Of a DNA stretch of 64,000 bases, positions 29,695 to 51,152 are shown in pieces. A model generated the notes under the pieces. The model did no database searches. It saw nothing but the letters and a program-made list of their open reading frames with translations, and was not told the origin of the DNA. Origin of the DNA: Blautia sp. Its GTDB lineage: Bacteria; Bacillota; Clostridia; Lachnospirales; Lachnospiraceae. How positions within the stretch are numbered: the first letter of the stretch is position 1; every line of letters begins with the position of its first letter. Location of the stretch: NCBI GenBank assembly GCA_022777285.1, contig JALFGN010000123.1, positions 4,752 through 68,751 on the forward strand. The letters are read 5' to 3'. A program made the translations under genes and the position numbers.

Positions 29695-29732
29695 CGATTC
29701 AGAAAAAATAAAATGGATAAAGGGGTGAAAAT

Positions 29733-33413: not shown

Positions 33414-35624
33414 ATGAAGAAGCGTAGAATGAAGCTTATGGCGTTGCTGTTGGCTTTGACAGTGTCTTTTAATTCTGTGGTGCCGGCAGGAGCTGCCGTT
33501 TCTGAAGAGAAGGTAACCGTGGATACTGTTGCAGAACCGGACAATACGGAAGAGGCAGAAAATAGTGTAGATGTGGTTGCAGAAAAAAGTGCAGAAGAGA
33601 TACAGGACAGTAACTGGACGGTAGAAAAAGTAACCGATGCAGATGGCAAAATCACTTCTGTTATTTTCAGAAAATATGCCGATGCAGCATCAAAAACAGG
33701 GTTTGAATTCAAATGGGTATACGATGATGCACAGGGAACCTGGGCACAGTATCAATCAGACGAAGCAGATGCAGTACCGGAGAAAACAGCAGAGGGCATT
33801 TACGAGACAGGTGCTTTAAAGAAAGAAGATACCGTCTCGAAACTGATGTACTGGTTAGGGGATGCCGGAAAAGGAAAATCCGGATGGAAGCTTTCCGAGG
33901 ATGGAAATCAATTCTTCTACTACTATAGTGGAGAGGAAAAAGAAATTCTGGAGAATCTGGCAGAACTGCCGGTTGGCTTTTATCTGGGAATGCAGAAACC
34001 GTCAGAGTTGATCAAGGAGGGGTATTATTCCGATATCAACGGGGATAGTTACTGGTTGAAAGACGAAGGAATTCTTGTAAAGAATGAATGGAAACTTTAC
34101 AAAGATGAAGCCGGAACAGAATATTATTACTACTTTGGAGAAGACGGCAAACAGGATAAGAGCAAGAAAGGGCTTCAGACCATCAACGGGGCAGAATATT
34201 ATCTGAAAGATGATTTCTCTTTACTGAAAAGTGACAGTGTGATGATCGACGGCAAAAAACATGTTTTCGATGAAAATGGAAAATGTGTACAGGAATATGT
34301 TCCTGTAGAGGCAGGATGGCATTCCGATGAAAAAGGTCGTTGGTATCAGTGTGAAGATGGTACCCGTCCGGAAAATTGCTGGAAAGAGATTGACGGAGAA
34401 AAATATTATTTCGGAGAAGACGGTTATATCGTATATGGCTGGCTGGAATATGAAGGAAACTGGTATTATCTTGGAAAAGCCGATGATGGTGCTATGAAAA
34501 CAGGCTGGCAGAAGGTCGGCGGCAAGTGGTATTATATGGATCCGTCCAGTGGTATTATGCAGGAAGGCTGGGTAGAAGTTGACGGCAAATGGTACTATCT
34601 GAAACCGGGCAATGGAGCAATGCAGGAAGGCTGGCTGAAACTTTCCGGTAAATGGTATTATCTGAATCCTGGTAACGGAGCAATGGCCGAAGGTTGGAAA
34701 AAGGTTGGCGGCAAATGGTATTACCTGAAACCGGGTGATGGAGCGATGCAGGAAGGCTGGCAGAAAATCGGCAGCAAATGGTATTATCTGACACCAGGCA
34801 ATGGAGCGATGCGTGAAGGCTGGCTGAAACTTTCCGGTAAATGGTATTATCTGAAACCAGGTAATGGAGCGATGGCCGAAGGCTGGTGTAAAGTTTCTGA
34901 TAAATGGTATTACCTGAAACCAGGAAACGGAGCTATGGTGGATGGATGGCGTAAGGTAGACGGTAAATGGTATTACCTGAAACCAGAAAAAGGCTATCGT
35001 ATGGAAAGCTGGCAGAAAATTGGCGGCAAATGGTATTATCTGAAACCGGGCAGCGGAGCCATGGTGACTGGATGGAATTATATTAGCGGATACAAGCTGT
35101 ACTTTAATTCCGACGGTGTTCTGGTACAGGATGTGAGCAATATGATCAGCGGTCCTTACAGAATCCGAGTAAATCGTACCAGATGTATGGTTACGATTTT
35201 TGCAAAAGACGGAAGCAATGGCTGGATCATACCAGTAAAATCCATGACCTGTTCCGTGGGACTTCCGGCGACACCGACACCGACCGGTACTTTCTATATC
35301 GGTGATCAGGACAGATGGCATGCACTGATGGGACCGTCCTGGGGACAGTACACTTCTCATGTTTATCAGGGAATTTTCATTCACTCTGTAGCAGGTGCAG
35401 AGAAGAGAATCGATAACTTAAATGCAGCAGACTATAACAAACTGGGTCAGCCGGCATCTCATGGATGCATTCGTCTCTGTGTAAGAGACGCAAAATGGAT
35501 CTATACAAATGTAAGCAGAGGCTCTCAGATTACCATCGGTGATGGATATTATGAACCGTTTGACAAACCGGCAACAATTAAACTGAAACCGGGAACAAAT
35601 TTAGTAGATCCAACACAGTGTTAA
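33414..35624 (+). CDS. Secreted L,D-transpeptidase (YkuD domain) with cell-wall-binding (CW_binding_1) repeats
   Basis: Signal peptide, then about 15 GW..GKWYYL-type repeats, then a C-terminal YkuD domain with GIFIHS and the catalytic SHGCIRL. Confidence 0.85.
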   Translation: MKKRRMKLMALLLALTVSFNSVVPAGAAVSEEKVTVDTVAEPDNTEEAENSVDVVAEKSAEEIQDSNWTVEKVTDADGKITSVIFRKYADAASKTGFEFKWVYDDAQGTWAQYQSDEADAVPEKTAEGIYETGALKKEDTVSKLMYWLGDAGKGKSGWKLSEDGNQFFYYYSGEEKEILENLAELPVGFYLGMQKPSELIKEGYYSDINGDSYWLKDEGILVKNEWKLYKDEAGTEYYYYFGEDGKQDKSKKGLQTINGAEYYLKDDFSLLKSDSVMIDGKKHVFDENGKCVQEYVPVEAGWHSDEKGRWYQCEDGTRPENCWKEIDGEKYYFGEDGYIVYGWLEYEGNWYYLGKADDGAMKTGWQKVGGKWYYMDPSSGIMQEGWVEVDGKWYYLKPGNGAMQEGWLKLSGKWYYLNPGNGAMAEGWKKVGGKWYYLKPGDGAMQEGWQKIGSKWYYLTPGNGAMREGWLKLSGKWYYLKPGNGAMAEGWCKVSDKWYYLKPGNGAMVDGWRKVDGKWYYLKPEKGYRMESWQKIGGKWYYLKPGSGAMVTGWNYISGYKLYFNSDGVLVQDVSNMISGPYRIRVNRTRCMVTIFAKDGSNGWIIPVKSMTCSVGLPATPTPTGTFYIGDQDRWHALMGPSWGQYTSHVYQGIFIHSVAGAEKRIDNLNAADYNKLGQPASHGCIRLCVRDAKWIYTNVSRGSQITIGDGYYEPFDKPATIKLKPGTNLVDPTQC
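34437..35130 (+). repeat. Tandem 63-nt (21-aa) coding repeats, GW.K..GKWYYLKPGNGAM.E type
   Basis: About 11 consecutive units. The 40-nt string aaggctggctgaaactttccggtaaatggtattatctgaa occurs exactly twice, starting at 34627 and 34816, which is 189 nt (3 units) apart. More degenerate units lie upstream from about 34020. Confidence 0.9.
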
Positions 35625-35638
35625 TAACAGGCTGTTTG

Positions 35639-35669
35639 GGAGACGTGTTTTGACACGTCTCCTTTTTTT
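35639..35669 (+). terminator. Rho-independent terminator after the L,D-transpeptidase gene
   Basis: A 9-bp stem, ggagacgtg / cacgtctcc, followed by T7. Confidence 0.8.
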
Positions 35670-35678
35670 CGATATAAT
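35650..35678 (+). promoter_or_regulatory. Perfect-consensus sigma-A promoter TTGACA-17-TATAAT for the PLP/GT2/ATP-grasp operon
   Basis: Both hexamers match consensus with a 17-nt spacer. The -35 lies in the loop and 3' arm of the upstream terminator hairpin. Confidence 0.6.
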
Positions 35679-35740: not shown

Positions 35741-36730
35741 ATGTTCGAACGATATGAAAATTCACCGATTTATCCCATTAAGAATACAAAGGGAAATGGA
35801 AATCGGATTTATGTAAAACGAGAAGATTTGCTTCCTTTTTCTCTGGGAGGAAATAAGGTGCGGATTGCCCGTGAGTTTTTTCGGGATATGGAAGAAAAAA
35901 ACTGCGATACCATGGTGGTCTATGGAAATACACGCTCAAATCTTTGCAGAGTCATTGCGAATCAATGTTATATACAGAACATACCCTGTTATATGATCAG
36001 TTCCAGAGAGGAGCATGAGAAAGAGAGAGAAGAGACAGGAAACAGCAGACTTATGGAATTATTAGGAGCCAAAATTATCCCCTGTACGAAAGCAGAGATA
36101 GCTTCGGCAGTGGAAGAGACCATGAAAGCCATTGAGAAAACAGGAAGAAAGCCTTACTATATATATGGAAATAAATGGGGCACAGGCAATGAAGCTACAG
36201 CAACAGCAGCCTATGTAAAAGCATACAGGGAAATACAGGATTTTGAAGAAGAACATGCGCTTTCCTTTGATTATATTTTTCATGCTTCCGGTACAGGAGC
36301 CACACAGTCCGGATTGATCTGTGGACATATTCTGGCAGGGGATTCGACAAAGATAATCGGAATTTCTGTTTCTTCCAGAGAATATGAAAGAGGAGTATCG
36401 GTCATCCGGACAGGAGTAGAAAGTTATCTGAAAGACAGGAAGATTTCCCGAAATTTTGATACTGATCAGGAAATTTTTCTGGAATGTAAGTATAACAAAG
36501 GTGGTTACGGGATCTACGATGAAGAAATATTGGATTGTATCCGGCGACAATTCAGAAAAAACAGTCTCCCTCTGGATCCTGTTTATACAGGAAAAGCGTT
36601 TCTTGGAATGGAAAAATATCTGGAAGAACAGAAAATTACCGGAAAAAATATTCTGTTTCTTCACACCGGAGGAACACCGTTATTCTATGATTGCCTGTAT
36701 GCAGGAAAATTAAAACAGGAAGGAATTTAA
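35741..36730 (+). CDS. Fold-type II PLP-dependent enzyme (ACC deaminase / D-cysteine desulfhydrase family)
   Basis: KREDL...LGGNKVR supplies the Schiff-base Lys context. The SGTGATQSG Gly-rich loop and about 330 aa fit the family. Confidence 0.7.
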   Translation: MFERYENSPIYPIKNTKGNGNRIYVKREDLLPFSLGGNKVRIAREFFRDMEEKNCDTMVVYGNTRSNLCRVIANQCYIQNIPCYMISSREEHEKEREETGNSRLMELLGAKIIPCTKAEIASAVEETMKAIEKTGRKPYYIYGNKWGTGNEATATAAYVKAYREIQDFEEEHALSFDYIFHASGTGATQSGLICGHILAGDSTKIIGISVSSREYERGVSVIRTGVESYLKDRKISRNFDTDQEIFLECKYNKGGYGIYDEEILDCIRRQFRKNSLPLDPVYTGKAFLGMEKYLEEQKITGKNILFLHTGGTPLFYDCLYAGKLKQEGI

Positions 36731-36734
36731 AAAT

Positions 36735-37670
36735 ATGTTAATATCAATTGTGATTCCTTGTTATTATTCTGAAAAAACCATTAAAAAAGTTGTAGAGATG
36801 ACAATAGACGAATTTTCAAAAACCAATCGGTATGATTGTGAATTTGTTCTGGTCAATGATGGATCTACAGATGGTACCTATGAAAAAATAAAGGAACTGG
36901 CAGAAAAATATCCTTTTGTGCAGGGCGTAAATTTACTGAGAAATTTTGGACAGCACAATGCACTTATGGCAGCGCTTCATTACGTGAGGGGAGATTATGT
37001 TCTGGGCATGGATGATGATATGCAGACACATCCATCGCAGATTCATAAACTGGTAGAAAAGATTCAGGAAGGATATGATCTGGTTTATGGACATTATGGG
37101 AAAAAGAAAAATTCTACTCTTAAAAATCTCAGCAGTAAATTAAACGAAGTATCCTCCCGTATTCTTCTTGGCAGACCAAAGGAAATCGTTTCCAGCAATT
37201 TCTGGATCATTACCCGTAAGGTAGCGGAGGAAGTTATCAAATATGACAGCTACAATCCTTATATTGACGGGATTTTTTACAGAGTCACACACAATATCGG
37301 AAATGTGGAAGTAGAACATCATAAACGGGAAGTAGGAACATCGAATTATACATTGAAAAGACTGATTCGTTTGTGGCTGGCATACTGGAATTATTCGGTC
37401 ATTCCGCTTCGGATTTCTTCTGTAACAGGTGGTGTAATGGCAATGGCAGGATTTGTCGCTGCGCTCCTTACCATAATCCGAAAACTGGTGCATCCCGGTA
37501 TTCCGGTAGGATGGGCTTCCACGATTTGCGTCGTTACTGTATTTGCAGGATTGATTCTGATGAGCCTTGGAATTATAGGGGAATATCTGGGAAAAATTAT
37601 ACTTACGCTGAATCATACCCCGCAGTTTATTGTCAGGGAGAGTATCAACACAGATGGAGAAAAGAGATGA
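36735..37670 (+). CDS. GT2 polyprenyl-phosphate glycosyltransferase (GtrB/ArnC/CsbB type)
   Basis: SIVIPCYY, VNDGSTDGT, GMDDDMQTHP (the DxD-Q-P motif of the GtrB/ArnC class), and two C-terminal TM helices ending GIIGEYLGKI....PQFIVRE. Confidence 0.8.
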   Translation: MLISIVIPCYYSEKTIKKVVEMTIDEFSKTNRYDCEFVLVNDGSTDGTYEKIKELAEKYPFVQGVNLLRNFGQHNALMAALHYVRGDYVLGMDDDMQTHPSQIHKLVEKIQEGYDLVYGHYGKKKNSTLKNLSSKLNEVSSRILLGRPKEIVSSNFWIITRKVAEEVIKYDSYNPYIDGIFYRVTHNIGNVEVEHHKREVGTSNYTLKRLIRLWLAYWNYSVIPLRISSVTGGVMAMAGFVAALLTIIRKLVHPGIPVGWASTICVVTVFAGLILMSLGIIGEYLGKIILTLNHTPQFIVRESINTDGEKR

Positions 37671-38878
37671 AGAGAAAAATCATGATATTGGGGGCCGGAA
37701 TCTATCAGGTACCACTTATACGAAAAGCAAAAGAAATGGGACTTGAGACTCTGGTTGTAAGTATACCGGGGGATTATCCGGGAATTCCAATGGCAGATCG
37801 TTTCTTTCCATTGGATACAAGAGATTACGAGGGGATTCTCCAGGTGGCACAACAGGAAAAGATTCAGGGGATCTGTACTTCCGGAACGGATGTGGCAGTG
37901 CGGGCCATCGGTTATGTATGTGAACATATGGGGCTTTCCGGAATCCATTTTTCAGCAGCAAAGCGGGCAACGGATAAAGCACTTATGAAGGAAGCTTTTC
38001 ACAGACATCAGGTTTCCACAGCAGATTTTCATAAAGTTTGTTCCAGGGAAGAAGCTTTGCAGGCAGCAGAACAAATCGGATATCCGGTAGTCGTAAAAGC
38101 AGTGGACAGTTCCGGGAGTCGGGGAATCTTAAAAGCCGGGAATGGGCAGGAATTACAAGCAGCGTTCGAAAATGCCCGGGCTGTAACAAAGAAGAATTAT
38201 GTACTGGTGGAAGAATGGCTGGATGGAGAAGAAATCGGAGTCGATGCTTTTATGGGAGAAGAGAATCTGGAGGTATTTTTTCCGCACAGAAAATTTATCT
38301 GCCGGGCAGCGAATACCACGATTCCTTCCGGGCATCGATTTCCCTTTGATGGTTCACCAAGGCTTGATCAGGAGCTGAGATTGCAGATCTTAAAGGCAGC
38401 AAAAGCGCTTGGATTGAAAAACTGTCCTTTAAATGCGGATGTTTTTGTAAAAGGGGATAAGGTCTGGATCATTGAGATGGGAGGAAGAACAGGGGCTACC
38501 TGTATTCCGGAATTGATTTCGGTGAATCAGGGATATGACTGGTATGAAAAGATCCTTCAGGCAGCATTGGGTGAAAAGCCTGATTTTTCAGGAAAATCCA
38601 ATGTTTCCTGCATGGCAAAACTTGTATTTTCTCCGGTAACGGGAAAGATTCGCAAAATAGACAGGGAGGGAATCGAAGCATTGAAGAAACAGGAGATTCT
38701 CTGTCAGATGGATTACAAGGAAGGAGATATGGTGGAGAAAGTCTTAAATGGAACAGACCGGATCGGGCATATTTTGATGAAGACAGAAGAGGAAAGAAAA
38801 CTGAATCAGGCTCTGGGGAAACTTTACAGTTGTATCTGGCTGGATCAGGGGAATCTGGAGGAACTATGGAAAAGATAA
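37667..38878 (+). CDS. ATP-grasp domain ligase
   Basis: IMILGAGIYQVPLIRKAKEMG pre-ATP-grasp region, DKALMKEAF, GYPVVVKAVDSSGSRGI, LVEEWLDGEEIGVDAF, and VWIIEMGGRTG. The ATG overlaps the GT2 stop (ATGA). Confidence 0.8.
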   Translation: MKRKIMILGAGIYQVPLIRKAKEMGLETLVVSIPGDYPGIPMADRFFPLDTRDYEGILQVAQQEKIQGICTSGTDVAVRAIGYVCEHMGLSGIHFSAAKRATDKALMKEAFHRHQVSTADFHKVCSREEALQAAEQIGYPVVVKAVDSSGSRGILKAGNGQELQAAFENARAVTKKNYVLVEEWLDGEEIGVDAFMGEENLEVFFPHRKFICRAANTTIPSGHRFPFDGSPRLDQELRLQILKAAKALGLKNCPLNADVFVKGDKVWIIEMGGRTGATCIPELISVNQGYDWYEKILQAALGEKPDFSGKSNVSCMAKLVFSPVTGKIRKIDREGIEALKKQEILCQMDYKEGDMVEKVLNGTDRIGHILMKTEEERKLNQALGKLYSCIWLDQGNLEELWKR

Positions 38879-39216
38879 AGGATTATCTCTTACTGCATCT
38901 GAACATTCTGTTATTTTCGTTTACCAGTGTATTGACGAAACTGGCATCCATTCAGTTTAATCGTCATGGCATCTATGACATTCGACTATATCTGTGTATT
39001 TTTCTGATGTTTTTGAATTGCTTTATCTATGCAATAGCCTGGCAGAAGGTGATTAAACGGTTTGAGTTAAATGTAGCTTATGCAAACAGAAGTGTTTATT
39101 TGATCTGGTCTCAGGTCTGGGCTGGATTGATTTTTCATGAGAATTTATCCGTTATGAATATTGTTGGTATGTTGGTGGTATTAACAGGAGTGTTGGTGGT
39201 GCAGAAATATGAATAA
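38866..39216 (+). CDS. Small 4-TM DMT/EamA-type half transporter (ArnE/ArnF-like)
   Basis: 116 aa with 4 TM helices and an SMR/EamA-like pattern. It overlaps the ATP-grasp end by 13 nt. Confidence 0.6.
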   Translation: MEKIKDYLLLHLNILLFSFTSVLTKLASIQFNRHGIYDIRLYLCIFLMFLNCFIYAIAWQKVIKRFELNVAYANRSVYLIWSQVWAGLIFHENLSVMNIVGMLVVLTGVLVVQKYE

Positions 39217-39544
39217 ATATATGCTGTTGCTTTATATTGGAACTTTTTTTACTGCATTTTCGCAGCTTTTATTAAAACAGAGTGCAAACAGAAGTTACAG
39301 GCATCCTGTTTTTGAATATCTGAACTGGCGTGTGATCACTGCTTACATAATTTTTTCAGGGGTTTTACTTTTGAATACATATGCCCTTACGCAAGTAGAT
39401 ATGAAATATGGTTCGATCATAGATACGTTCAGTTATGTGTTTGTAATGATTTTATCCTGTCTCATTTTAAAAGAGAAGTTTACAAAGGGGAAAGTAATTG
39501 GAAATCTTTTGATTATTGCAGGGATTATTTTATATCAGATGTAA
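39209..39544 (+). CDS. Small 4-TM DMT/EamA-type half transporter (ArnE/ArnF-like), second subunit
   Basis: 111 aa. FSQLLLKQSA is an EamA-like first helix. There are 4 TM helices. It overlaps the previous gene by 8 nt. Confidence 0.6.
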   Translation: MNKYMLLLYIGTFFTAFSQLLLKQSANRSYRHPVFEYLNWRVITAYIIFSGVLLLNTYALTQVDMKYGSIIDTFSYVFVMILSCLILKEKFTKGKVIGNLLIIAGIILYQM

Positions 39545-39549
39545 AAAAG

Positions 39550-39600
39550 ACAGACGTTCCAAACCGTACATTTGTACACCGGTTGGAACGTCTGCTTTTT
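39550..39600. terminator. Bidirectional terminator between the ArnE/F-like genes and the convergent wecE-like gene
   Basis: A ~16-bp stem (cagacgttccaaaccg / cggttggaacgtctg, one bulge) flanked by an A-run on the left and a T-run on the right. Confidence 0.8.
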
Positions 39601-40728
39601 TCAGGAAAAATAGTCAAAGATTGTTTTTACGATATATTCTTTCTCTTCCATAGAAAGACCATAATACAGAGGCAGACGTACCAGACGCTCACTTTCCTTT
39701 GTTGTATACCGGTCTTCTCCGGAAAAACGACCGTATTTTTGTCCGGCAGGAGATGTGTGAAGGGGAATATAGTGAAAAACACTCATAATGCCATGCTCTT
39801 TCATATAGGCAATAAAGTCTGTCCGGGACTGGAGATCCGGAAGTTTGATATAATACATATGAGCATTGTGTTCACAATACTCCGGAACAAACGGTTGTTC
39901 CAGATATCCTTTTTGGGCAAGAGGACGGAGTCTTTCGTCATAGAATTGATAAGTATCCATGCGGTCTTTCTGGATGGTATCGGCCTGTTCCAGCTGTGCC
40001 CAGAGATAAGCTGCATTCATATCGCTTGGAAGATAGGAGGAACCATAGTCCTGCCAGGTGTATTTATCCACCTGACCACGGAAAAACTTACTTCGGTTGG
40101 TTCCTTTTTCCCGGAGAATCTCCGCTTTTTCCAGATAATTTTCCTCCTGGAAAAACAGAGCACCCCCTTCTCCCATACTGAGGTTTTTCGTTTCATGAAA
40201 ACTCAGGCAGCCGAAGTCTCCGATCGTGCCGAGAAATTTTCCTTTATAGCGGGAGGAAAATCCCTGGGCGGCATCTTCGGTAACCTTCAGGTGATGGCGG
40301 GAGGCAATCTCCATGATGGTATCCATTTCACAGGCAACACCTGCATAATGAACCGGAACAATTGCTTTTGTACGGGAAGTAATGGCATCTTCGATCAGAG
40401 TTTCATCAATATTCATGGTATCCGGACGAATATCCACGAAAACAAGAGATGCACCTCTTTGAACGAATGCATCTGCAGTGGATACAAAAGTATAAGAAGG
40501 AAGAATCACTTCATCTCCAGATTTGATATCTGACAAAAGGGCTGCCATTTCCAGTGCATGCGTACAGGAAGTAGTGAGCAATGCATGATTTACAGAGAAC
40601 TGTTGCGTAAACCAGTTGCTGCATCTTTTGGTAAATTCTCCATCTCCACAGATCTTTCCATTGCGGATTGCTTGTTCTATGTAGTTCAGTTCGGTTCCGA
40701 CGAAAGGCGGAATATTAAAATCAATCAT
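39601..40728 (-). CDS. wecE: dTDP-4-amino-4,6-dideoxygalactose transaminase-like (WecE; DegT/DnrJ/EryC1 family)
   Basis: MIDFNIPPFVGTELNYIEQAI..GKICGDGEFT, PSYTFVSTA, NIDETLIE, VPVHYAGVACEMD, SFHETKN (PLP Lys), REKGTNRS.FFRGQVDKYTW and YTTKESERL. These track E. coli WecE closely as I remember it. AAGGAG RBS. Confidence 0.8.
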   Translation of the reverse strand: MIDFNIPPFVGTELNYIEQAIRNGKICGDGEFTKRCSNWFTQQFSVNHALLTTSCTHALEMAALLSDIKSGDEVILPSYTFVSTADAFVQRGASLVFVDIRPDTMNIDETLIEDAITSRTKAIVPVHYAGVACEMDTIMEIASRHHLKVTEDAAQGFSSRYKGKFLGTIGDFGCLSFHETKNLSMGEGGALFFQEENYLEKAEILREKGTNRSKFFRGQVDKYTWQDYGSSYLPSDMNAAYLWAQLEQADTIQKDRMDTYQFYDERLRPLAQKGYLEQPFVPEYCEHNAHMYYIKLPDLQSRTDFIAYMKEHGIMSVFHYIPLHTSPAGQKYGRFSGEDRYTTKESERLVRLPLYYGLSMEEKEYIVKTIFDYFS

Positions 40729-40919: not shown

Positions 40920-43457
40920 GTGAAAGAATCATGGAAAAGAGTATTGACAATCCTTTTGACTCTGGCAATGCTTTTTACAAACTGCAGTCCGGTATTGGGT
41001 GCGGAAGAATCGGGACAAACTGCAGAGACAGAGATTCCCTGTAACTATATTTTCATGCAGGATGATGGGGAGTATCAATCGATTATTCTGGAAATCGGAG
41101 ATGAGGAGGAAGACATTCTGGATGGAGCAGCTCTTACATACCGGGATGGAAATGGAGATTTTATTGAAGTACAGGCAGAAGAAGTGCAGGAAAACCTGGC
41201 AGCTTTTCTGATTCCTGTTGCACAAGAGGATCAACAGCGCGTATTTGTTTCCGCACAGGCGGTAGTGCAGGGAACGGTACATACAGTAAAAATGGACAAT
41301 AAGGAAGAAATGGAACATGTGGAGGTTTCTGAGGAACAGGCGACTTCTGTAGTGGAAGAAGTACAGGGAGAGTCCGTGGATACTGAGAATGCTTCAGAAG
41401 AAGCACTGGATTCGGAAACGGCCAGACAGGTTCAGGAATGTGTGATCACATCAGAGGAAGGTGTGACTGCAGAGGAGATTGAAACTGCCATAGAGGAGAC
41501 CAACAACCTGCCTGTGACAGAATCTCGGGAAAATGAAACACTTGCGGAAAAACCGGAAGAAAAAGAAGATTATATTGTGGTTCTCGATCCAGGGCATGGA
41601 GGTTCAGACGGAGGAGCTGAAAATGCTTATGGAGAAGATTCCGAATCGATACTCACTTTGAAAATTGGAACTTATCTGAAAGCAGAATTGGAAAAATATG
41701 CAGAGTTATCGGTTTTCATGACACGTGAAGATGATACTTATGTAGGATTAAGTGATCGTGTTCAGTATGCAGTAGATAAAAAGGCGGATATTCTGGTCAG
41801 TCTTCATTTGAATTCTTATGAGTCTAGTTCTGCCAACGGTGTGGAAATTCTTGTTCCAAGAACCGGACGATACAATACAGAAGTGGCAGAAAATGCAGAA
41901 CATCTGGCGAATAATATTCTGGAACGCATCACATCTTTAGGACTTTATAACCGGGGCTTGAAATACAGAGACTCAGCATCTGGAGGAACTTATCCAGATG
42001 GAAGTACTTCGGATTATTATACGATTATTGAAAAAGGTATGCGTGCAGGCATTCCTTCCATTATTGTAGAACATGCATTTATCAGCGGTGAGCAGGATGC
42101 ACAGTATCTGGACAGCGAAGAAGACCTGATGAATTTCGCCAAAGCGGATGCCTACGGAATTGCTCAGTATTTTGGCATAGAGACTGGCGGCGAAGAATAC
42201 GAGGAAGTACCAAAACCTGCCGGAGAATGGAAAAAAATCAATGGCAAATGGTATTATTACATAGGAAATGAAAAACAGACCGGCTGGATTGAGGTAGAGA
42301 GTAAGTGGTATTATCTGGATGCAGATGGTGTGATGCAGACGGGCTGGCAGAAAGTAGGCGGTTCCTGGTATTATCTGAATGGAGCCGGTGTGATGCAGAC
42401 GGGCTGGAAGAAGATTGACGGGAACTGGTATTATCTGAATGGATCCGGTGTGATGCAGACGGGCTGGAAAAAAATAGGCGAGTTCTGGTATTATCTGAAC
42501 AGTGCCGGCGTGATGCAGACGGGCTGGAAGAAAATCGACAATAACTGGTATTATCTGAACAGTGATGGAGAGATGCAGACCGGCTGGAAGAGACTCAGCA
42601 GGAAATGGTATTACTTCAATGCAAGCGGCGTCATGTTGACGAACTGGCAGGAGATTGATGGCAAGTGGTACTATCTGAACAGTGCCGGTGTGATGCAGAC
42701 GGGCTGGAAGAAATCCTCCGGTAACTGGTATTACCTGAATGGAGCCGGTGAAATGGTAACCGGATGGAAAAAAATTAACGGAAAATGGTACTATTTTAAT
42801 GAATCCGGAATCATGCAGACGGGCTGGCAGAAAATAGACGGAGAATGGTATTATTTAGAAGACTCTGGTGAATGGAACCCGGATATGAAACGGACAGAAA
42901 CAGAGGAGAACGATCAGACAGAAAACTCATATACGATTATGGGTGAAACTTCTTCGACAGAAGAGCAGATGATCAAAAATTTACAAAGATCCGGATATGA
43001 ATATCCTGCGGAGGAACTGGAAAAAGGAGGAGCCGGGGATCTTGCTGTTTTTTGTAAGATCATAAAAGAAGAAGCAGAAGCAGAAGGTGTTCGGGCAGAG
43101 GTCCTTTTTGTACAGGCTATGAAGGAGACCGGCTGGCTGCAGTTTGGTGGAGATGTAAAAATTACACAGTTTAATTTTGGCGGTCTGGGAGCAACCGGAA
43201 ACGGAGAACCCGGAGAAACTTTTCCGGATGTGAGAACCGGGATCAGAGCGCAGGTACAGCATCTGAAAGCTTATGCTTCAGAAGAAGATCTGGTCAATGA
43301 ATGTGTAGATACTCGTTTTACCTATGTGACCAGAAACTGTGCGCCTTATGTAGAATGGCTGGGATCACAGGAAAATCCAAATCATGTAGGCTGGGCAGCA
43401 TCAGAAAGATATGGATATGAGCTGGTCGAAATGATCCATACGTTAGAAAATATGTAA
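40920..43457 (+). CDS. Trimodular autolysin: N-acetylmuramoyl-L-alanine amidase (Amidase_3), 11 cell-wall-binding repeats, and a C-terminal glucosaminidase-like domain
   Basis: Signal peptide and an acidic linker. Amidase_3 motifs VVLDPGHGGSDGGA, SLHLNS and VEHAF. Eleven 20-aa GW.K..G.WYYLN repeats. C-terminal FVQAMKETGW...FNFGGLGA glucosaminidase-type motif. Confidence 0.85.
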   Translation: MKESWKRVLTILLTLAMLFTNCSPVLGAEESGQTAETEIPCNYIFMQDDGEYQSIILEIGDEEEDILDGAALTYRDGNGDFIEVQAEEVQENLAAFLIPVAQEDQQRVFVSAQAVVQGTVHTVKMDNKEEMEHVEVSEEQATSVVEEVQGESVDTENASEEALDSETARQVQECVITSEEGVTAEEIETAIEETNNLPVTESRENETLAEKPEEKEDYIVVLDPGHGGSDGGAENAYGEDSESILTLKIGTYLKAELEKYAELSVFMTREDDTYVGLSDRVQYAVDKKADILVSLHLNSYESSSANGVEILVPRTGRYNTEVAENAEHLANNILERITSLGLYNRGLKYRDSASGGTYPDGSTSDYYTIIEKGMRAGIPSIIVEHAFISGEQDAQYLDSEEDLMNFAKADAYGIAQYFGIETGGEEYEEVPKPAGEWKKINGKWYYYIGNEKQTGWIEVESKWYYLDADGVMQTGWQKVGGSWYYLNGAGVMQTGWKKIDGNWYYLNGSGVMQTGWKKIGEFWYYLNSAGVMQTGWKKIDNNWYYLNSDGEMQTGWKRLSRKWYYFNASGVMLTNWQEIDGKWYYLNSAGVMQTGWKKSSGNWYYLNGAGEMVTGWKKINGKWYYFNESGIMQTGWQKIDGEWYYLEDSGEWNPDMKRTETEENDQTENSYTIMGETSSTEEQMIKNLQRSGYEYPAEELEKGGAGDLAVFCKIIKEEAEAEGVRAEVLFVQAMKETGWLQFGGDVKITQFNFGGLGATGNGEPGETFPDVRTGIRAQVQHLKAYASEEDLVNECVDTRFTYVTRNCAPYVEWLGSQENPNHVGWAASERYGYELVEMIHTLENM
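42222..42876 (+). repeat. Tandem 60-nt (20-aa) coding repeats, GWKKI.GNWYYLN.AGVMQT type
   Basis: 11 units. The string gtgatgcagacgggctgg recurs six times with near-identical flanks. Confidence 0.9.
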
Positions 43458-43506: not shown

Positions 43507-43557
43507 GGGATAATATTGTATAATAATTTTAACTACAGAAAATGGGAGAGAAACGAT

Positions 43558-44130
43558 TTGAAAAAATATTGTGCAGCATTTTTACTTGCTTTGCAAATGG
43601 TCGGTTTTGTATGGACAACGGTCAATGCAGATGCAGGAGAAAACAGAATAACAGAAGTGCAGATTCAAGAAGAAGGAAAAACAGGGATCTGGAGGAAAGA
43701 AGGAAGAAAATGGTATTATCGTTGGGAAAATGGAGATTGTCTGAAAGATACCTGGTTCTTTTTTGAGGATCATTGGTACTATCTGAAAGAAGACGGGAAA
43801 ATGGCAGTGGACTGGGAAAAAATAGAAGGGCATTGGTATTATTTCTCTGATACAGGAAGAATGAAATGCGGATGGATTCACGATAAGGACGCCTGGTATT
43901 TTGCTGATGAAGAAGGAAAGATGGTTACCGGATGGAAAGAGATTCAGGGAGAACGGTATTATTTTGAGGAAGAAACAGATGGAGAAGGAAGAATGAAGAC
44001 CGGATGGATGTGCGAAAAAGGGAAATGGTACTTTTTCAGCAAATCCGGAAAACTGAACAGAAATAAAAATCAGTATTCCCTGGGGCAGGTGTTCCGATTA
44101 GGGGATTCTGGAGAATGGATAAAGGAATAA
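43558..44130 (+). CDS. Secreted cell-wall-binding repeat protein (repeat-only)
   Basis: Signal peptide (KKYCAAFLLALQMVGFVWTTVNA) followed by about 6 W-YY/F-type CW_binding repeats. The ORF is open from 43516; the TTG at 43558 has the better RBS. Confidence 0.7.
   Translation: MKKYCAAFLLALQMVGFVWTTVNADAGENRITEVQIQEEGKTGIWRKEGRKWYYRWENGDCLKDTWFFFEDHWYYLKEDGKMAVDWEKIEGHWYYFSDTGRMKCGWIHDKDAWYFADEEGKMVTGWKEIQGERYYFEEETDGEGRMKTGWMCEKGKWYFFSKSGKLNRNKNQYSLGQVFRLGDSGEWIKE
43684..44058 (+). repeat. Degenerate cell-wall-binding coding repeats (about 6 units)
   Basis: Periodic W.(Y/F)(Y/F)...G.M..GW pattern in the translation. Confidence 0.7.
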
Positions 44131-45180
44131 TTGCGGAATATGGGAATGATGACAGTTATTAAAATTTTTCTGGCAACAGCAGGACTGTTGGTTCTTGCTT
44201 TTGGACTGGGATTGCTCTGGGTGAAAGAAGGAAGAGAAGACAGCAGTCTGGAGATTCTTATGAAAGGGATCGTTACGGCTTTTGCAGCCTTTGAGATTGC
44301 GGCACTTGGAGCAACTGCTGCAAATCTGCCGTATCATGTTCTTGCGTTGGGGTATCAGGGAGTTGTGATTCTGACAGCAGCCGGTTCTTTTTATGTGAAA
44401 CGAAGTATACTCAGAACATTGGGAAAAAGAATCTTACAGAAACAATGGAAATCCTGTGTCTGGTATCTGCCCGCATTGCTGTTGATTGTGTTTCAGGTTT
44501 ATGTGGGGACAGTCGATACACATATTGATGATGATGATGCTTTCTATGTTGCAACCGCATCTACTACGCTTGAAACAGACAGTTTGTTTCAATATAGTTC
44601 CTATACAGGAGAAAGAATGGAAGAGAAGCCAGCCAGATATGTGCTTTCTCCCTTTCCTGTGTTTATTGCCATGCTCAGTGAAATTTACCGCATGCCGCCT
44701 GCTGTTTTTGCACATACATGCATACCTCTTCTAATGATTCCTCTTGCTTATATGGTTTATTTTTTATTTGGCCGATTCTTATTCGGAAAAAGCAGGAAAA
44801 AAAGAGGAATTTTTTTATTGCTGATTGCCTGGATGAATTTATTTGGTTATTATTCAATCTATACAGCATCTACGTTTTTGCTGATTCGTATCTGGCAGGG
44901 AAAAGCTTTGCTGGCGTCAGTTTTTATTCCGCTGCTGCTTTTTTATCTGTTAAAGTGGTATGTGGAGAAAAAACAGCAAAAGAAAATGTGGTATCTGTCT
45001 GTGGTATCCCTTGCGCTTGCCTTATGCTCTTCTATGGGGATTTTCTTTGCACCACTGATGATTGGAGTAAGCGGATTGCTGAAATGTGTGAAAGAGAGAA
45101 AATCAATCATTCTGTTTTACACAATTCTCCTTTGTATCCCCTGTGGAATCTTGGGAGTTTTATACCTTTTTGTAAAATAG
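44131..45180 (+). CDS. Polytopic membrane protein of unknown function (about 9-10 TM helices, DDDD loop motif)
   Basis: Highly hydrophobic, 349 aa, with a loop THIDDDDAFYVATAS. The likely start is an ATG at 44140-44149. I could not place it securely in a family. Confidence 0.5.
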   Translation: MRNMGMMTVIKIFLATAGLLVLAFGLGLLWVKEGREDSSLEILMKGIVTAFAAFEIAALGATAANLPYHVLALGYQGVVILTAAGSFYVKRSILRTLGKRILQKQWKSCVWYLPALLLIVFQVYVGTVDTHIDDDDAFYVATASTTLETDSLFQYSSYTGERMEEKPARYVLSPFPVFIAMLSEIYRMPPAVFAHTCIPLLMIPLAYMVYFLFGRFLFGKSRKKRGIFLLLIAWMNLFGYYSIYTASTFLLIRIWQGKALLASVFIPLLLFYLLKWYVEKKQQKKMWYLSVVSLALALCSSMGIFFAPLMIGVSGLLKCVKERKSIILFYTILLCIPCGILGVLYLFVK

Positions 45181-45190
45181 GAGTTTTTGT

Positions 45191-45961
45191 ATGAAGGAAA
45201 TATGGGATTTGACAAACGATATGTGGGAATTATACAGAGGGCAGGGATGGTATCTGTTTTGTTTTCTGGCTGCAGTTGTGTGTTTACTTTTGAAGAGAAA
45301 AGAAAGTAAAAAAGCAAGATTTTTGTCTGCGTACAGTATACTCATGTTGTTTCTTTTCTGGTGTCCCGTGTCAGCAAAGCTGATTATGGATTATGGGATC
45401 GGCAGAAGTGTCTATTGGAGAATGTTCTGGCTTTTCCCCATAACACTTCTGATCGGATGGGTGCTTACTGTTCTGGTGTGCAGTACAAGGAAAAAAACCA
45501 TACAGACTTTGCTTCTGGCAGGGAGTTTGGTCCTTACAGCAGCAGGAGGAACCTGGATCTATCGGGAAGATGTATTTCAGAAAACGACCAATCTTTATAA
45601 AATTCCTCAGACTGTGATTCCAATCTGCCAGAAGATGCGGGAGTATCCACAGGAAGAAACCATAAAAGCAGCCGTAGCAGATGATTTACTTTCTTATATT
45701 CGTCAGTATGATCCTGGAATTCATATGGTTTATGGGAGAAATACGACAAAAGATTTTCAGGCAGAAACGATGGAGGCTGCTGTTTTGTATGGGGTACTTC
45801 ATGAAGAACAGCAGGACAGAGAGACTTTTGTGTCTGCAATAGAACTGTCGGAGTGTAATTTTCTGGTGCTGAAAGGGGATCATCCGGTGAAGAAATGGGC
45901 AGATTTGGAATATGAAATGCTTTTAGAAGTGGATGGGTATTATTTATACTATACCGGTTAA
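45191..45961 (+). CDS. Membrane protein of unknown function (about 4 TM helices plus a soluble C-terminal domain)
   Basis: 256 aa. AGGAG lies 7 nt before the ATG. The gene begins 10 nt after the preceding gene. Confidence 0.5.
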   Translation: MKEIWDLTNDMWELYRGQGWYLFCFLAAVVCLLLKRKESKKARFLSAYSILMLFLFWCPVSAKLIMDYGIGRSVYWRMFWLFPITLLIGWVLTVLVCSTRKKTIQTLLLAGSLVLTAAGGTWIYREDVFQKTTNLYKIPQTVIPICQKMREYPQEETIKAAVADDLLSYIRQYDPGIHMVYGRNTTKDFQAETMEAAVLYGVLHEEQQDRETFVSAIELSECNFLVLKGDHPVKKWADLEYEMLLEVDGYYLYYTG

Positions 45962-47461: not shown

Positions 47462-47463
47462 CT

Positions 47464-48204: not shown

Positions 48205-48215
48205 GAGATGTTGAT

Positions 48216-49388: not shown

Positions 49389-49409
49389 TTTTATGGAGGA
49401 AAAAAAAGA

Positions 49410-51132: not shown

Positions 51133-51152
51133 AAAATAAGGAGATAAAAGCT

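What the first reader, a model, noticed from the sequence alone, without database searches (positions are those of the whole stretch)
35741..40728. Candidate undescribed Gram-positive Arn-like pathway for an N-acylated 4-amino-6-deoxyhexose carried on a lipid
Five genes run from the consensus promoter at 35650 to a bidirectional terminator at 39550-39600. They are almost seamlessly joined: a 4-nt gap, an ATGA overlap, a 13-nt overlap and an 8-nt overlap. In order they encode:
- a fold-type II PLP enzyme of the ACC-deaminase / D-Cys desulfhydrase family, with the GGNKVR lysine
- a GtrB/ArnC-class GT2, with the DDDMQTHP motif and two C-terminal TM helices ending GIIGEYLGKI, the class that loads a sugar onto undecaprenyl phosphate
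- an ATP-grasp ligase
- two ~115-aa 4-TM EamA/SMR-like proteins that look like the heterodimeric ArnE/ArnF flippase

A WecE-type sugar 4-aminotransferase shares the terminator from the other side. Its motifs are very close to E. coli WecE, including SFHETKN.

Functionally this mirrors the Gram-negative Arn logic: aminotransferase, then Und-P glycosyltransferase, then ArnEF flippase. It lacks ArnA, ArnD and ArnT. It adds an amide-forming ATP-grasp enzyme and a PLP enzyme.

The simplest reading has four steps:
1. dTDP-4-amino-4,6-dideoxyhexose is made.
2. The sugar is transferred to Und-P.
3. Its amino group is acylated by the ATP-grasp enzyme with an amino or keto acid supplied or edited by the PLP enzyme.
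4. The product is flipped outward to decorate a wall glycopolymer.

The island downstream supplies both polymers and candidate extracytoplasmic transferases (44131-45961). I know of no characterised Firmicute system with this composition.
Basis: inference. Interest (0 to 1): 0.72.

Follow-up and report, generated by a model that had tools for sequence, protein, structure and literature searches.

The report
Lipid-linked acylated amino-sugar pathway in Blautia
A common human-gut Blautia carries a tightly packed six-gene unit, conserved in many gut Firmicutes and never described, that most likely makes an unusual acylated amino sugar on a lipid carrier and flips it outward to decorate the cell wall.

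Summary

Family assignments hold:
- a D-cysteine-desulfhydrase-like PLP enzyme
- a GtrB/ArnC-class polyprenyl-phosphate GT2
- an ATP-grasp ligase
- two small EamA proteins remotely like ArnE/ArnF
- a convergent bona fide WecE

Across 80 species-level genomes, GT2–ATP-grasp–EamA–EamA is almost invariant. The PLP gene accompanies it in about 70% of loci and WecE in about 25–30%.

Three contexts tie all six functions together:
- A Blautia contig has them in one overlapping operon, in a different order, with ATP-grasp and PLP fused.
- An Actinobacterium (Adlercreutzia) has the same set plus a YfhO transferase.
- A Blautia MAG has RmlB and RmlA flanking the set.

The ATP-grasp family also occurs fused to phosphoglycosyltransferases, directly after DegT aminotransferases. 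That is the architecture of Neisseria PglB2, which N-acylates a 4-amino-4,6-dideoxy sugar.

Best reading: dTDP-Fuc4N is N-acylated by the ATP-grasp enzyme, probably before lipid transfer. It is then loaded on Und-P, flipped, and attached to a wall polymer.

Still unknown are the acyl group, the PLP enzyme's role, the acceptor, and the transferase in this genome. No paper describing the system was found. I rate it a new variant of a known kind.

The parts
35650..35678 (+). Sigma-70-type promoter (TTGACA, 17-nt spacer, TATAAT) for the five-gene operon. Its -35 hexamer lies inside the terminator hairpin of the upstream gene (35638-35663).
   Evidence: 12/12 consensus match. The hairpin folds at -18 kcal/mol, z = -4.3. 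Sequence read.
35741..36730 (+). Fold-type II PLP enzyme of the D-cysteine desulfhydrase / cysteate sulfo-lyase / ACC-deaminase family. It carries GGNKVR (Schiff-base lysine), DPVYTGKA and HTGG, which is the desulfhydrase pattern rather than the ACC-deaminase pattern. Proposed role: supplies or edits the acyl donor.
   Evidence: PALP 117 bits. CuyA 175, TIGR01275 153 and XcbE 138 bits, all below curated cut-offs. About 25-30% identical to the PDB D-Cys desulfhydrases 7YSK and 4D8T. Motifs are conserved in 49 orthologues. Fused to the ATP-grasp enzyme in Blautia protein P0201, with 45% identity.
36735..37670 (+). GtrB/ArnC-class GT2 (polyprenyl-phosphate glycosyltransferase). It has the DDDMQTHP motif, two C-terminal TM helices and a GIIGEYLGKI juxtamembrane motif.
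   Evidence: Glycos_transf_2 104 bits. PgfS 177 and ArnC 147 bits over the full length, below equivalog cut-offs. Best PDB sequence hits are ArnC (126 bits) and GtrB (120 bits). 27-28% identical to E. coli ArnC over the full length, with conserved motifs. TM helices at 232-248 and 264-280.
37667..38878 (+). Soluble ATP-grasp carboxylate-amine ligase, related to L-amino-acid ligases, PurD/PurT and PglB2-type domains. Proposed N-acylase of the 4-amino sugar.
   Evidence: ATP-grasp_4 50 bits; LAL_C2 a weak 22.7 bits. PDB 4DIM at E = 1e-60, then L-amino-acid ligases. AF2 model pLDDT 92. 34% identical over the full length to the ATP-grasp domain of the Bac_transf fusion P0249.
38866..39216 (+). Small (116 aa) DMT/EamA-SMR-type membrane protein. 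Proposed first half of the flippase pair.
   Evidence: EamA, weak, 21.6 bits. ArnE 24 bits and ArnF 20.7 bits, both below cut-offs. A family HMM matches E. coli ArnE over the full length at 29 bits. Hydropathy.
39209..39544 (+). Small (111 aa) EamA-family membrane protein with four hydrophobic segments. Proposed second half of the flippase pair.
   Evidence: EamA 46.6 bits, above the 28.2 cut-off. It is a paralogue of the first small protein: the Eam1 HMM hits Eam2 sequences at E of about 1e-7. Hydropathy.
39542..39603 (.). Bidirectional intrinsic terminator shared by the operon and the convergent WecE gene.
   Evidence: Hairpin at -30.3 and -29.9 kcal/mol on the two strands, z = -7.1 and -6.0, with U-tracts on both sides.
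39601..40728 (-). WecE-type dTDP-4-keto-6-deoxyglucose 4-aminotransferase, which makes dTDP-4-amino-4,6-dideoxyhexose. Contains the SFHETKN lysine motif.
   Evidence: NF008687 631 bits (cut-off 375) and TIGR02379 629 bits (cut-off 435). DegT_DnrJ_EryC1 297 bits. NCBI names it dTDP-4-amino-4,6-dideoxygalactose transaminase.
44131..45961 (+). DUF6077 membrane protein (44131-45180) plus a 256-aa partner with 4 TM helices and a soluble domain (45191-45961). This is only a candidate for the extracytoplasmic transferase. Its link to the unit is weak.
   Evidence: DUF6077 332 bits; weak PTPS_related and DUF6057 hits. Invariant HIDDDDAFY motif in 24 homologues. The pair is conserved in L093 and L094. 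The AF2 model (pLDDT 89) has no significant PDB match. Near the unit only in L007 and the same-species contigs.

Best explanation
The five-gene operon and the convergent WecE gene form one pathway. It builds an N-acylated 4-amino-4,6-dideoxyhexose on undecaprenyl phosphate and delivers it to the outer face of the membrane, where it decorates a cell-wall glycopolymer.

Steps:
1. RmlA and RmlB, encoded elsewhere in this genome, give dTDP-4-keto-6-deoxyglucose. WecE aminates it to dTDP-Fuc4N. The family assignment is shown; the stereochemistry is inferred.
2. The soluble ATP-grasp ligase activates a carboxylic acid as an acyl phosphate and amidates the 4-amino group. This most likely happens on the nucleotide sugar, taking the place of the acetyltransferase WecD, the PglB acetyltransferase domain or the ArnA formyltransferase. 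This step is inferred from homology to PglB2-type fusions.
3. The D-Cys-desulfhydrase-like PLP enzyme makes or edits the acyl donor, which would be a non-standard or D-amino acid, or a 2-oxo acid derived from one. Alternatively it trims the aminoacyl group after ligation. The functional coupling is shown by gene fusion; the chemistry is unknown.
4. The GtrB/ArnC-class GT2 transfers the sugar to Und-P. The class is shown; the substrate is inferred.
5. The two small EamA proteins act as an ArnE/ArnF-like heterodimeric flippase (inferred).
6. A GT-C enzyme attaches the sugar to a rhamnose-type polysaccharide or a teichoic-acid-like polymer (inferred). In other genomes this enzyme is YfhO. Here it may be the DUF6077 pair or a gene elsewhere.
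For: **Family assignments:**

**Operon structure:**

**Co-conservation in 80 species-level loci:**
- GT2 directly upstream of the ATP-grasp gene in 74 of 78 assessable loci
- both EamA genes downstream in 68 of 77
- PLP in 53 of 74
- WecE within 10 kb in 21 of 68

Stop-to-stop spacings show the overlaps are conserved.

**Rearranged contexts:**
- L092 has EamA-EamA-[ATP-grasp::PLP fusion]-GT2-WecE-RmlC-ABC2-Wzt, all overlapping on one strand. The PLP part of the fusion is 45% identical to the window enzyme.
- L072 (Adlercreutzia, Actinobacteria) has ATP-grasp, WecE, GT2, the EamA pair, YfhO, PLP and a second ATP-grasp in another arrangement.
- L068 has RmlB-PLP-GT2-ATPgrasp-EamA-EamA-WecE-...-RmlA. 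RmlB scores 481 bits and RmlA 489 bits, both above cut-off.
- RmlD and rhamnan-type multi-domain GT2s flank the unit in L011, L012 and L076.
- YfhO lies within 10 kb in 11 loci, counting L072, and abuts the unit in L054, L065, L073, L079 and L072.

**The ATP-grasp family in glycan pathways:**
- It includes Bac_transf+ATP-grasp fusions that sit directly after DegT aminotransferases in polysaccharide clusters.
- That is the architecture of Neisseria PglB2, which gives a 4-glyceramido trideoxyhexose (PMC11130364, PMC6959607).
- Further fusions to GNAT, hexapeptide acyltransferase and HAD domains fit a sugar-tailoring family.

**Same sugar with or without a nearby WecE:** GT2 identity stays at 60-80% in loci with and without an adjacent WecE, which suggests one substrate.
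Against: - There is no biochemical or genetic evidence.
- WecE is absent from the 10-kb neighbourhood in about 70% of loci, and I could not check whether it lies elsewhere in those genomes.
- rmlA, rmlB and rmlC are not in this window.
- The GT2, the small proteins, the PLP enzyme and the LAL_C2 domain all score below curated family cut-offs, so substrates cannot be read from sequence.
- Characterised GtrB/ArnC enzymes use UDP-sugars (own knowledge). A dTDP-linked donor would be unusual.
- No GT-C enzyme is demonstrably tied to the unit in this genome.
- A PLP beta-eliminating lyase has no obvious place in known N-acyl sugar chemistry.
Confidence: 0.6

Rival explanations
1. Same parts and same product, in the order the first reader proposed. 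The un-acylated 4-amino sugar is first put on Und-P by the GT2. The ATP-grasp enzyme then acylates the lipid-linked sugar at the inner face of the membrane before flipping.
For: The GT2 and ATP-grasp genes overlap (ATGA) and are adjacent in 74 of 78 loci, which is compatible with a membrane-associated complex. Lipid-linked tailoring has a precedent in ArnD, which acts on Und-P-Ara4FN (own knowledge).
Against: The ATP-grasp protein has no hydrophobic segment. Its relatives fused to phosphoglycosyltransferases sit where the PglB acetyltransferase domain sits, and that domain acts on the UDP-sugar before transfer (PMC6959607). In Arn, N-formylation precedes ArnC (own knowledge, and the abstract of PMC12690121 seen).
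Confidence: 0.15
2. The universal core of GT2, ATP-grasp and two EamA proteins handles a different sugar. One example is a uronic acid whose carboxylate is amidated with an amino acid or amine by the ATP-grasp enzyme. WecE would then belong to the neighbouring polysaccharide clusters.
For: WecE is within 10 kb in only 21 of 68 loci, and it always lies in wall-polysaccharide islands. From my own knowledge, ATP-grasp enzymes are known to amidate sugar carboxylates, for example in Campylobacter capsule glucuronamides.
Against: WecE overlaps the GT2 gene inside the operon in L092. It follows the EamA genes co-directionally in 7 loci, and it recurs with the set in an Actinobacterium in a different order. 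RmlB lies immediately upstream of the PLP gene in L068. No UDP-glucose dehydrogenase recurs next to the unit. The family's other fusions sit next to DegT aminotransferases.
Confidence: 0.12
3. The lipid-linked sugar is used for protein O-glycosylation, for example of surface proteins that carry cell-wall-binding repeats, as in the Streptococcus mutans Pgf system. It would not then decorate a wall polysaccharide or teichoic acid.
For: The best NCBIfam hit of the GT2 is PgfS, at 177 bits. The unit is flanked by several secreted proteins with choline-binding-type repeats.
Against: The PgfS score is far below its cut-off of 500. The adjacent GT-C in other genomes is YfhO, which from my own knowledge is characterised as a teichoic-acid glycosyltransferase. 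The unit repeatedly abuts rhamnan-type ABC-transporter clusters.
Confidence: 0.08
4. This is not a glycan pathway. The ATP-grasp and PLP enzymes make a small peptide-like metabolite that the EamA pair exports, and the GT2 is unrelated.
For: The ATP-grasp enzyme resembles L-amino-acid ligases. EamA/DMT proteins are often metabolite exporters. From my own knowledge, D-cycloserine biosynthesis pairs a fold-type II PLP enzyme with an ATP-grasp enzyme.
Against: The GT2 is the most conserved member (60-80% identity) and is adjacent in 74 of 78 loci, with an overlapping stop/start. The set recurs with WecE, Rml and YfhO.
Confidence: 0.04

Closest known systems
Arn (PmrHFIJKLM) pathway of Gram-negative bacteria: ArnB, ArnA, ArnC, ArnD, ArnE/F, ArnT
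   Same: - A sugar 4-aminotransferase of the DegT family (WecE is 30% identical to ArnB).
- A GtrB/ArnC-class Und-P glycosyltransferase (27-28% identical to ArnC over the full length, with the same DxDxQ and GEYxG motifs).
- Two adjacent, overlapping genes for small DMT-type membrane proteins that weakly match ArnE and ArnF.
- N-acylation of the new amine as part of the route.
   Different: - The sugar is a dTDP-6-deoxyhexose, not UDP-Ara4N.
- There is no ArnA, ArnD or ArnT.
- The amine is acylated by an ATP-grasp ligase rather than formylated.
- An extra PLP enzyme is present.
- All members score below the Arn equivalog cut-offs (ArnC 147 against 529; ArnE 24 against 92; ArnF 20.7 against 99).
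- The acceptor cannot be lipid A in a Gram-positive organism.
Neisseria PglB2 (phosphoglycosyltransferase + ATP-grasp), which makes glyceramido-acetamido-trideoxyhexose (GATDH)
   Same: An ATP-grasp domain replaces the acetyltransferase that normally caps a 4-amino-4,6-dideoxy sugar made by a DegT aminotransferase. The window ATP-grasp enzyme is 34% identical over its full length to ATP-grasp domains with exactly this fusion architecture, and those genes sit directly after DegT genes (PMC11130364; PMC6959607).
   Different: - Here the ATP-grasp enzyme is free-standing, or fused to a PLP enzyme in a relative.
- It is paired with a monophosphate-forming GT2, not a phosphoglycosyltransferase.
- The sugar is dTDP-linked.
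- I could not compare it directly with the Neisseria PglB2 sequence, so the relationship rests on architecture.
Gram-positive three-component glycosylation systems: CsbB/GtcA/YfhO for teichoic acids, and GacI/GacJ/GacK/GacL for the streptococcal rhamnose polysaccharide
   Same: A GtrB-type GT2 makes Und-P-sugar. A flippase moves it out, and a GT-C enzyme adds it to a wall polymer. YfhO abuts the unit in several genomes, and rhamnan-type clusters (Rml genes, ABC-2/Wzt, multi-domain GT2) flank it.
   Different: - Known systems transfer ordinary Glc or GlcNAc from UDP-sugars.
- They use GtrA-family (GtcA) or Wzx-type flippases.
- They have no dedicated aminotransferase, ATP-grasp or PLP enzyme.
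Enterobacterial common antigen branch WecE/WecD (dTDP-Fuc4NAc)
   Same: WecE here passes the curated WecE models at 631 and 629 bits. The same dTDP-4-keto-6-deoxyglucose branch point is implied.
   Different: There is no WecD acetyltransferase or WecF. The product is predicted to go onto Und-P as a single sugar, not into a Und-PP-linked repeat unit.
PDB 4DIM, an uncharacterised ATP-grasp protein from Anaerococcus prevotii deposited as 'phosphoribosylglycinamide synthetase'
   Same: It is the closest solved structure: E = 1e-60 by sequence, 30% identity, TM-score 0.81.
   Different: I know of no functional data for it. The PurD label is an automatic annotation.

Membership tests
Arn pathway | ArnC equivalog (Und-P 4-deoxy-4-formamido-L-arabinose transferase, NF007986) | tested here: not met
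   147 bits against a cut-off of 529. The class-level architecture is shared, with a full-length alignment and conserved motifs.
Arn pathway | ArnE and ArnF equivalogs (NF011625, NF002816) | tested here: not met
   24 bits against 92, and 20.7 against 99, for the first small protein. The second small protein has no hit. A family HMM matches ArnE over the full length at 29 bits, which shows superfamily-level relatedness only.
Arn pathway | Presence of ArnA (dehydrogenase/formyltransferase), ArnD (deformylase) and ArnT (lipid A transferase) | tested here: not met
   None of the ORFs between 33000 and 47000 matches them.
GtrB/ArnC-class polyprenyl-phosphate glycosyltransferases (GT2) | N-terminal GT-A domain with a DxD/DxDxQ motif, two C-terminal TM helices and a juxtamembrane GEYxG motif | tested here: met
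   Pfam PF00535 at 104 bits. Best PDB hits are ArnC and GtrB over residues 3-306. Motifs aligned. TM helices.
GtrB/ArnC-class polyprenyl-phosphate glycosyltransferases (GT2) | Transfers a sugar to undecaprenyl phosphate | not testable with these tools
   Needs an enzyme assay or lipid analysis.
WecE (dTDP-4-amino-4,6-dideoxygalactose transaminase) | Passes the curated equivalog or subfamily model and has the PLP lysine motif | tested here: met
   NF008687 631 bits against 375; TIGR02379 629 bits against 435. SFHETKN is present.
D-cysteine desulfhydrase / ACC deaminase family (TIGR01275) | Passes the curated subfamily cut-off | tested here: not met
   152.8 bits against 289.4. The best hit is CuyA at 174.7 against 450. 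It is therefore a distinct branch of the family.
D-cysteine desulfhydrase / ACC deaminase family (TIGR01275) | Catalytic lysine (GGNK), the Tyr-Thr pair and HTGG (desulfhydrase type), as opposed to Tyr-Glu and Leu (ACC deaminase type) | tested here: met
   GGNKVR, DPVYTGKA and HTGG align with 7YSK and 1RQX. They are conserved in 49 orthologues. The assignment of these residues to the two subtypes rests on my own knowledge of the family.
ATP-grasp carboxylate-amine ligases / L-amino-acid ligases | ATP-grasp fold | tested here: met
   PF13535 at 49.6 bits against 27. AF2 model pLDDT 92, with Foldseek matches to 4DIM, RizA, BL00235 and PurT at E of 1e-26 or lower.
ATP-grasp carboxylate-amine ligases / L-amino-acid ligases | LAL C-terminal domain 2 (PF18603) | tested here: not met
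   22.7 bits against a cut-off of 29.4. Many close homologues do pass.
PglB2-type sugar-amine acylating ATP-grasp domains | Homology to ATP-grasp domains fused to a phosphoglycosyltransferase and adjacent to a DegT aminotransferase | tested here: met
   P0249: 204 bits, 34% identity, query residues 3-388. Bac_transf+ATP-grasp architecture. DegT directly upstream in L090 and L091.
PglB2-type sugar-amine acylating ATP-grasp domains | Direct similarity to Neisseria PglB2 itself | not tested
   No Neisseria sequence was available. None was named among the 120 best hits of P0249.
Three-component glycosylation systems | A GT-C transferase genetically linked to the GT2 and the flippase | tested here: inconclusive
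   YfhO (PF09586) abuts the unit in L054, L065, L072, L073 and L079, and lies within 10 kb in 11 loci. In this window there is only the DUF6077 pair, which has no fold match (best E = 0.23).

The most novel reading that the evidence does not exclude
The ATP-grasp enzyme attaches an amino acid whose alpha-amine stays free, with the acid made or matured by the PLP enzyme. Abundant gut Lachnospiraceae would then display a cationic aminoacyl-Fuc4N on their rhamnan or teichoic acid. This would be a Gram-positive counterpart of lipid A Ara4N and of D-alanylation. It would tune surface charge and resistance to host antimicrobial peptides, and it might form the ligand for the many choline-binding-type repeat proteins encoded around the unit.
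Probability: 0.2. Interest if true: 0.85.

Novelty: new variant of a known kind. Interest (0 to 1): 0.62.

Why it matters
**Prevalence.**
- The exact ATP-grasp protein is listed in 408 blocks of the assembly collection. The contigs shown are from ENA metagenome assemblies, and one record name labels the sample as a gut metagenome.
- Relatives occur in at least 176 species-level genomes. Most are Lachnospiraceae, with some Anaerovoracaceae and an Eggerthellaceae.

**What it predicts.** If the reading is right, these dominant commensals carry a wall decoration that has not been chemically described. It would be built by a route that merges three ideas known separately:
- Arn-type lipid-linked amino-sugar delivery
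- PglB2-type ATP-grasp acylation
- Gram-positive three-component glycosylation

Such a decoration could affect peptide resistance, phage and immune recognition, and the anchoring of wall-binding proteins.

**Testable leads.** It assigns a testable role to a large ATP-grasp family (750 clusters at 50% identity with E of 1e-30 or lower), including the orphan structure 4DIM. It also does so for an unplaced branch of the D-Cys-desulfhydrase family.

Tried and rejected
- **RNA elements.** Rfam and tRNA scans of the window found nothing, so there is no riboswitch or leader.
- **Terminator scan.** The simple scan missed the bidirectional terminator. Folding showed it.
- **Recurrent neighbours.** Most recurrent neighbours of the unit are lineage synteny, judged by reading their sequences without a family scan: sigma-70, ClpX, HtrA, MecA, a PdaA-like deacetylase, a GH18 and an Orn/Lys decarboxylase. 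I rejected them as parts of the system. In particular, I considered the NodB-type deacetylase after the EamA genes in 15 loci as an ArnD analogue. I dropped it because it is confined to one clade with conserved flanks.
- **Rml genes.** Motif and tblastn searches found no rmlA, rmlB or rmlC in the window.
- **DUF6077 as a GT-C enzyme.** There are only weak Pfam hints. A confident AF2 model gave no significant PDB fold match, so this is left inconclusive.
- **The 330-aa protein that replaces PLP in Anaerovoracaceae.** It has no Pfam, NCBIfam or PDB hit.
- **Neisseria PglB2 by name.** It was not among the best 120 hits of the fusion protein. The original GATDH paper (PMC1976187) is not held.
- **Literature.** Six full-text searches were run. 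Five looked for this gene combination and found no description of it. The sixth found the PglB2 papers.
- **Acyl group.** Predicting it from sequence or structure was not possible. The nearest characterised ATP-grasp enzymes are below 20% identical.

Full report
**Observation**

One search lists five co-directional ORFs:
- 35741-36730
- 36735-37670
- 37667-38878, using the internal MKRKIMILGAG start of the longer ORF
- 38866-39216
- 39209-39544

They are separated by a 4-nt gap, a 4-nt ATGA overlap, a 13-nt overlap and an 8-nt overlap. A convergent ORF lies at 39601-40728. All the quoted motifs are present.

A perfect sigma-70 consensus (TTGACA, 17 nt, TATAAT) sits at 35650-35678. Its -35 hexamer lies inside the terminator hairpin of the upstream gene. 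Between the two convergent stop codons there is a long hairpin flanked by A- and T-runs. It folds at about -30 kcal/mol on either strand, with z = -7.1 and -6.0.

The source is a Blautia sp. The same proteins are in NCBI MAG records under generic names. The exact ATP-grasp protein is listed in 408 blocks of the assembly collection, and the contigs shown come from metagenome assemblies, one of them labelled as a gut metagenome.

**What the genes are**

- **Gene 1** is a fold-type II PLP enzyme (PALP 117 bits). Its best curated matches are cysteate sulfo-lyase CuyA, the D-cysteine desulfhydrase family and XcbE, all below cut-off. Aligned with solved D-Cys desulfhydrases and ACC deaminases, it has the lysine (GGNKVR), DPVYTGKA and HTGG. 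To my knowledge that is the desulfhydrase pattern, not the ACC-deaminase Tyr-Glu / Leu pattern. These motifs are conserved in 49 orthologues.
- **Gene 2** is a GtrB/ArnC-class GT2. Its best solved relatives are ArnC (126 bits) and GtrB (120 bits) over the whole length. It is 27-28% identical to E. coli ArnC, with DxDxQxxP and GEYxG aligned. It has two C-terminal TM helices.
- **Gene 3** is a soluble ATP-grasp ligase. A confident model (pLDDT 92) matches the orphan structure 4DIM, followed by L-amino-acid ligases, PurT and biotin carboxylases.
- **Genes 4 and 5** are paralogous small DMT/EamA proteins. The first gives weak ArnE and ArnF hits (24 and 20.7 bits), and its family HMM aligns with E. 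coli ArnE over the full length at 29 bits.
- **Gene 6** passes both curated WecE models (631 and 629 bits).

**Are they one system?**

I used an alignment of ATP-grasp homologues to fetch 80 species-level loci from reference genomes. Counting only loci with enough flanking sequence:
- The GT2 lies directly upstream of the ATP-grasp gene in 74 of 78.
- Both small EamA genes lie directly downstream in 68 of 77.
- The PLP gene lies upstream of the GT2 in 53 of 74.
- WecE lies within 4 kb in 17 of 68, and within 10 kb in 21 of 68.

Stop-to-stop distances show that the tight packing is conserved. The universal core is therefore GT2-ATPgrasp-EamA-EamA. The PLP gene is a frequent member and WecE is a neighbour in a minority of loci.

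Three contexts nevertheless tie all six together:
1. **L092.** A search of 1.84 billion cluster representatives turned up a Blautia protein in which the ATP-grasp enzyme is fused to a PLP domain 45% identical to gene 1. Its contig reads EamA-EamA-[ATPgrasp::PLP]-GT2-WecE-RmlC-ABC2-Wzt, on one strand with overlapping genes. Each part is homologous to its counterpart in the window.
2. **L072.** Adlercreutzia sp. ZJ141, an Actinobacterium, has ATP-grasp, WecE, a GtrB-like GT2, both EamA genes, a YfhO membrane glycosyltransferase, PLP and a second ATP-grasp in yet another order.
3. **L068.** In this Blautia MAG, RmlB (481 bits) directly precedes the PLP gene, WecE follows the EamA genes on the same strand, and RmlA (489 bits) lies a little further on.

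RmlD and multi-domain rhamnan-type GT2s flank the unit in L011, L012 and L076. The GT2 remains 60-80% identical whether or not WecE is nearby, which argues for one sugar substrate throughout.

**What the ATP-grasp enzyme does**

The family is large: 750 clusters at 50% identity with E of 1e-30 or lower. Its fusion partners are informative:
- GNAT and hexapeptide acyltransferases
- a HAD phosphatase
- a second ATP-grasp unit
- the PLP enzyme
- a Bac_transf phosphoglycosyltransferase

The Bac_transf fusion protein (P0249) is 34% identical to the window enzyme over its full length. In two independent contigs, genes with this fusion architecture lie immediately after a DegT-family aminotransferase inside a polysaccharide cluster.

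This is the architecture of Neisseria PglB2. There an ATP-grasp domain replaces the PglB acetyltransferase domain, and the glycan carries a 4-glyceramido instead of a 4-acetamido trideoxyhexose (PMC11130364, PMC6959607). I could not compare the Neisseria sequence itself.

Together with PurD, which amidates a ribosylamine with glycine (own knowledge), this makes N-acylation of the WecE product the most economical role. By analogy with PglB/PglB2 and with ArnA, the reaction most likely occurs on the nucleotide sugar, before the GT2 step.

**What remains unknown**

- **The acyl group.** It cannot be read from sequence.
- **The PLP enzyme.** Its family catalyses beta-elimination on D-cysteine, cysteate and related substrates. 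It could make a non-standard or D-amino acid or a 2-oxo acid for the ligase, or it could trim an aminoacyl group after ligation. The fusion proves coupling, not chemistry.
- **The acceptor.** The unit sits in wall-polymer islands. In this window these are:
  - a Bac_transf / TagF-like / TarI-TarJ-like / LicD x2 / Wzx / Wzy_C cluster
  - a GT2 / ABC-2 / Wzt cluster
  - several proteins with choline-binding-type repeats
- **The final transferase.** It is not identified here. YfhO lies within 10 kb of the unit in 11 loci and abuts it in five. The DUF6077 protein and its 256-aa partner at 44131-45961 form a conserved pair with an invariant HIDDDDAFY motif. However, a confident model has no PDB fold match, and the pair travels with the teichoic-acid-like cluster rather than with the unit.
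- **Rml genes.** rmlA, rmlB and rmlC are not in the window.

**Comparison and novelty**

The system works like Arn in its logic but fails every Arn equivalog test, and it lacks ArnA, ArnD and ArnT. It works like the Gram-positive three-component glycosylation systems. It differs from them in using an ArnE/F-like pair instead of GtrA/GtcA, and in carrying its own sugar-tailoring enzymes. Its ATP-grasp step works like PglB2.

Five full-text searches for this gene combination found no description of it. Public records annotate the genes only generically.

I therefore rate it a new variant of a known kind. It is well supported as a functional unit and plausible in mechanism, but untested biochemically.

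Noticed in passing
window 35638-35678: The -35 hexamer of the perfect promoter lies inside the stem-loop of the upstream gene's intrinsic terminator. Termination of the YkuD gene and initiation of the operon therefore share the same 40 bases.
   Followed up: partly
window 33414-35624, 40920-43457, 43516-44130, 56752-59598(-): Four secreted proteins with choline-binding-type (CW_binding_1) repeats surround the unit:
- a YkuD L,D-transpeptidase
- an amidase_3 + glucosaminidase
- a 204-aa repeat-only protein
- a metallo-beta-lactamase + Cna_B protein

In relatives, loci with WecE next to the unit also tend to have such repeat proteins, including GH25 lysozymes. The wall ligand of these repeats in Lachnospiraceae is, to my knowledge, unknown.
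   Followed up: partly
window 44131-45961; L093 5249-8820; L094 7001-8882: DUF6077 (about 345 aa, many TM helices, invariant HIDDDDAFY) always comes with a partner of about 255-280 aa (4 TM helices plus a soluble domain). The pair is duplicated in tandem in Konateibacter massiliensis, after a GT2 and an SDR. It looks like a split GT-C-type enzyme, but a confident AF2 model has no PDB match.
   Followed up: partly
window 46073-56708 and 59781-63123: There are two wall-polymer clusters.
- A Wzx/Wzy-type cluster with TagF-like, TarI/TarJ-like (CDP-ribitol) and two LicD genes.
- An ABC-transporter (ABC-2 + Wzt with a Wzt_C domain) cluster that runs off the end of the window.
   Followed up: partly
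P0233, P0244, P0135, P0164, P0121, P0125, P0143, P0183 (relatives of window 37667-38878): The ATP-grasp family occurs in several fused forms:
- with GNAT acetyltransferases
- with a hexapeptide acyltransferase
- with a HAD phosphatase
- as tandem doubles (Tessaracoccus, Actinomyces)
- at the end of a 1115-aa Alteromonas protein whose first 720 residues match no Pfam family

This suggests a modular toolkit for building N-acyl or N-aminoacyl sugars.
   Followed up: partly
L077 7829-8821(-), and the same position in L054, L057, L061, L065, L067: Where the PLP gene is missing (Anaerovoracaceae, Mogibacterium and some Clostridiales), a conserved 330-aa protein sits divergently upstream of the GT2. 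It has no Pfam, NCBIfam or PDB sequence hit. A 400-aa multi-TM protein, also without hits, is often beside it.
   Followed up: partly
L073 and L079, downstream of the unit: A second, diverged GT2-ATP-grasp pair is followed by a PaaK-like adenylate-forming enzyme. This may be a paralogous variant that uses a different acyl-activation chemistry.
   Followed up: no
L019, L028, L031, L038, upstream of the PLP gene: In a Marvinbryantia/Muricoprocola clade the unit is preceded by four genes:
- YfhO
- a PIG-L-family de-N-acetylase
- a class IV (D-amino-acid / branched-chain) aminotransferase on the opposite strand
- a saccharopine-dehydrogenase-like protein

They could hint at the acyl donor or at later deacylation, but they occur in one clade only.
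   Followed up: no
window 28600-31908: A 364-aa 8-TM protein without a Pfam hit is followed by the cdaA (DAC) - ybbR - HPr genes. This block lies upstream of the unit in this and several related genomes (L007, L010, L013, L053, L092). It marks a stable chromosomal position for the wall-modification island next to the c-di-AMP synthase operon.
   Followed up: no
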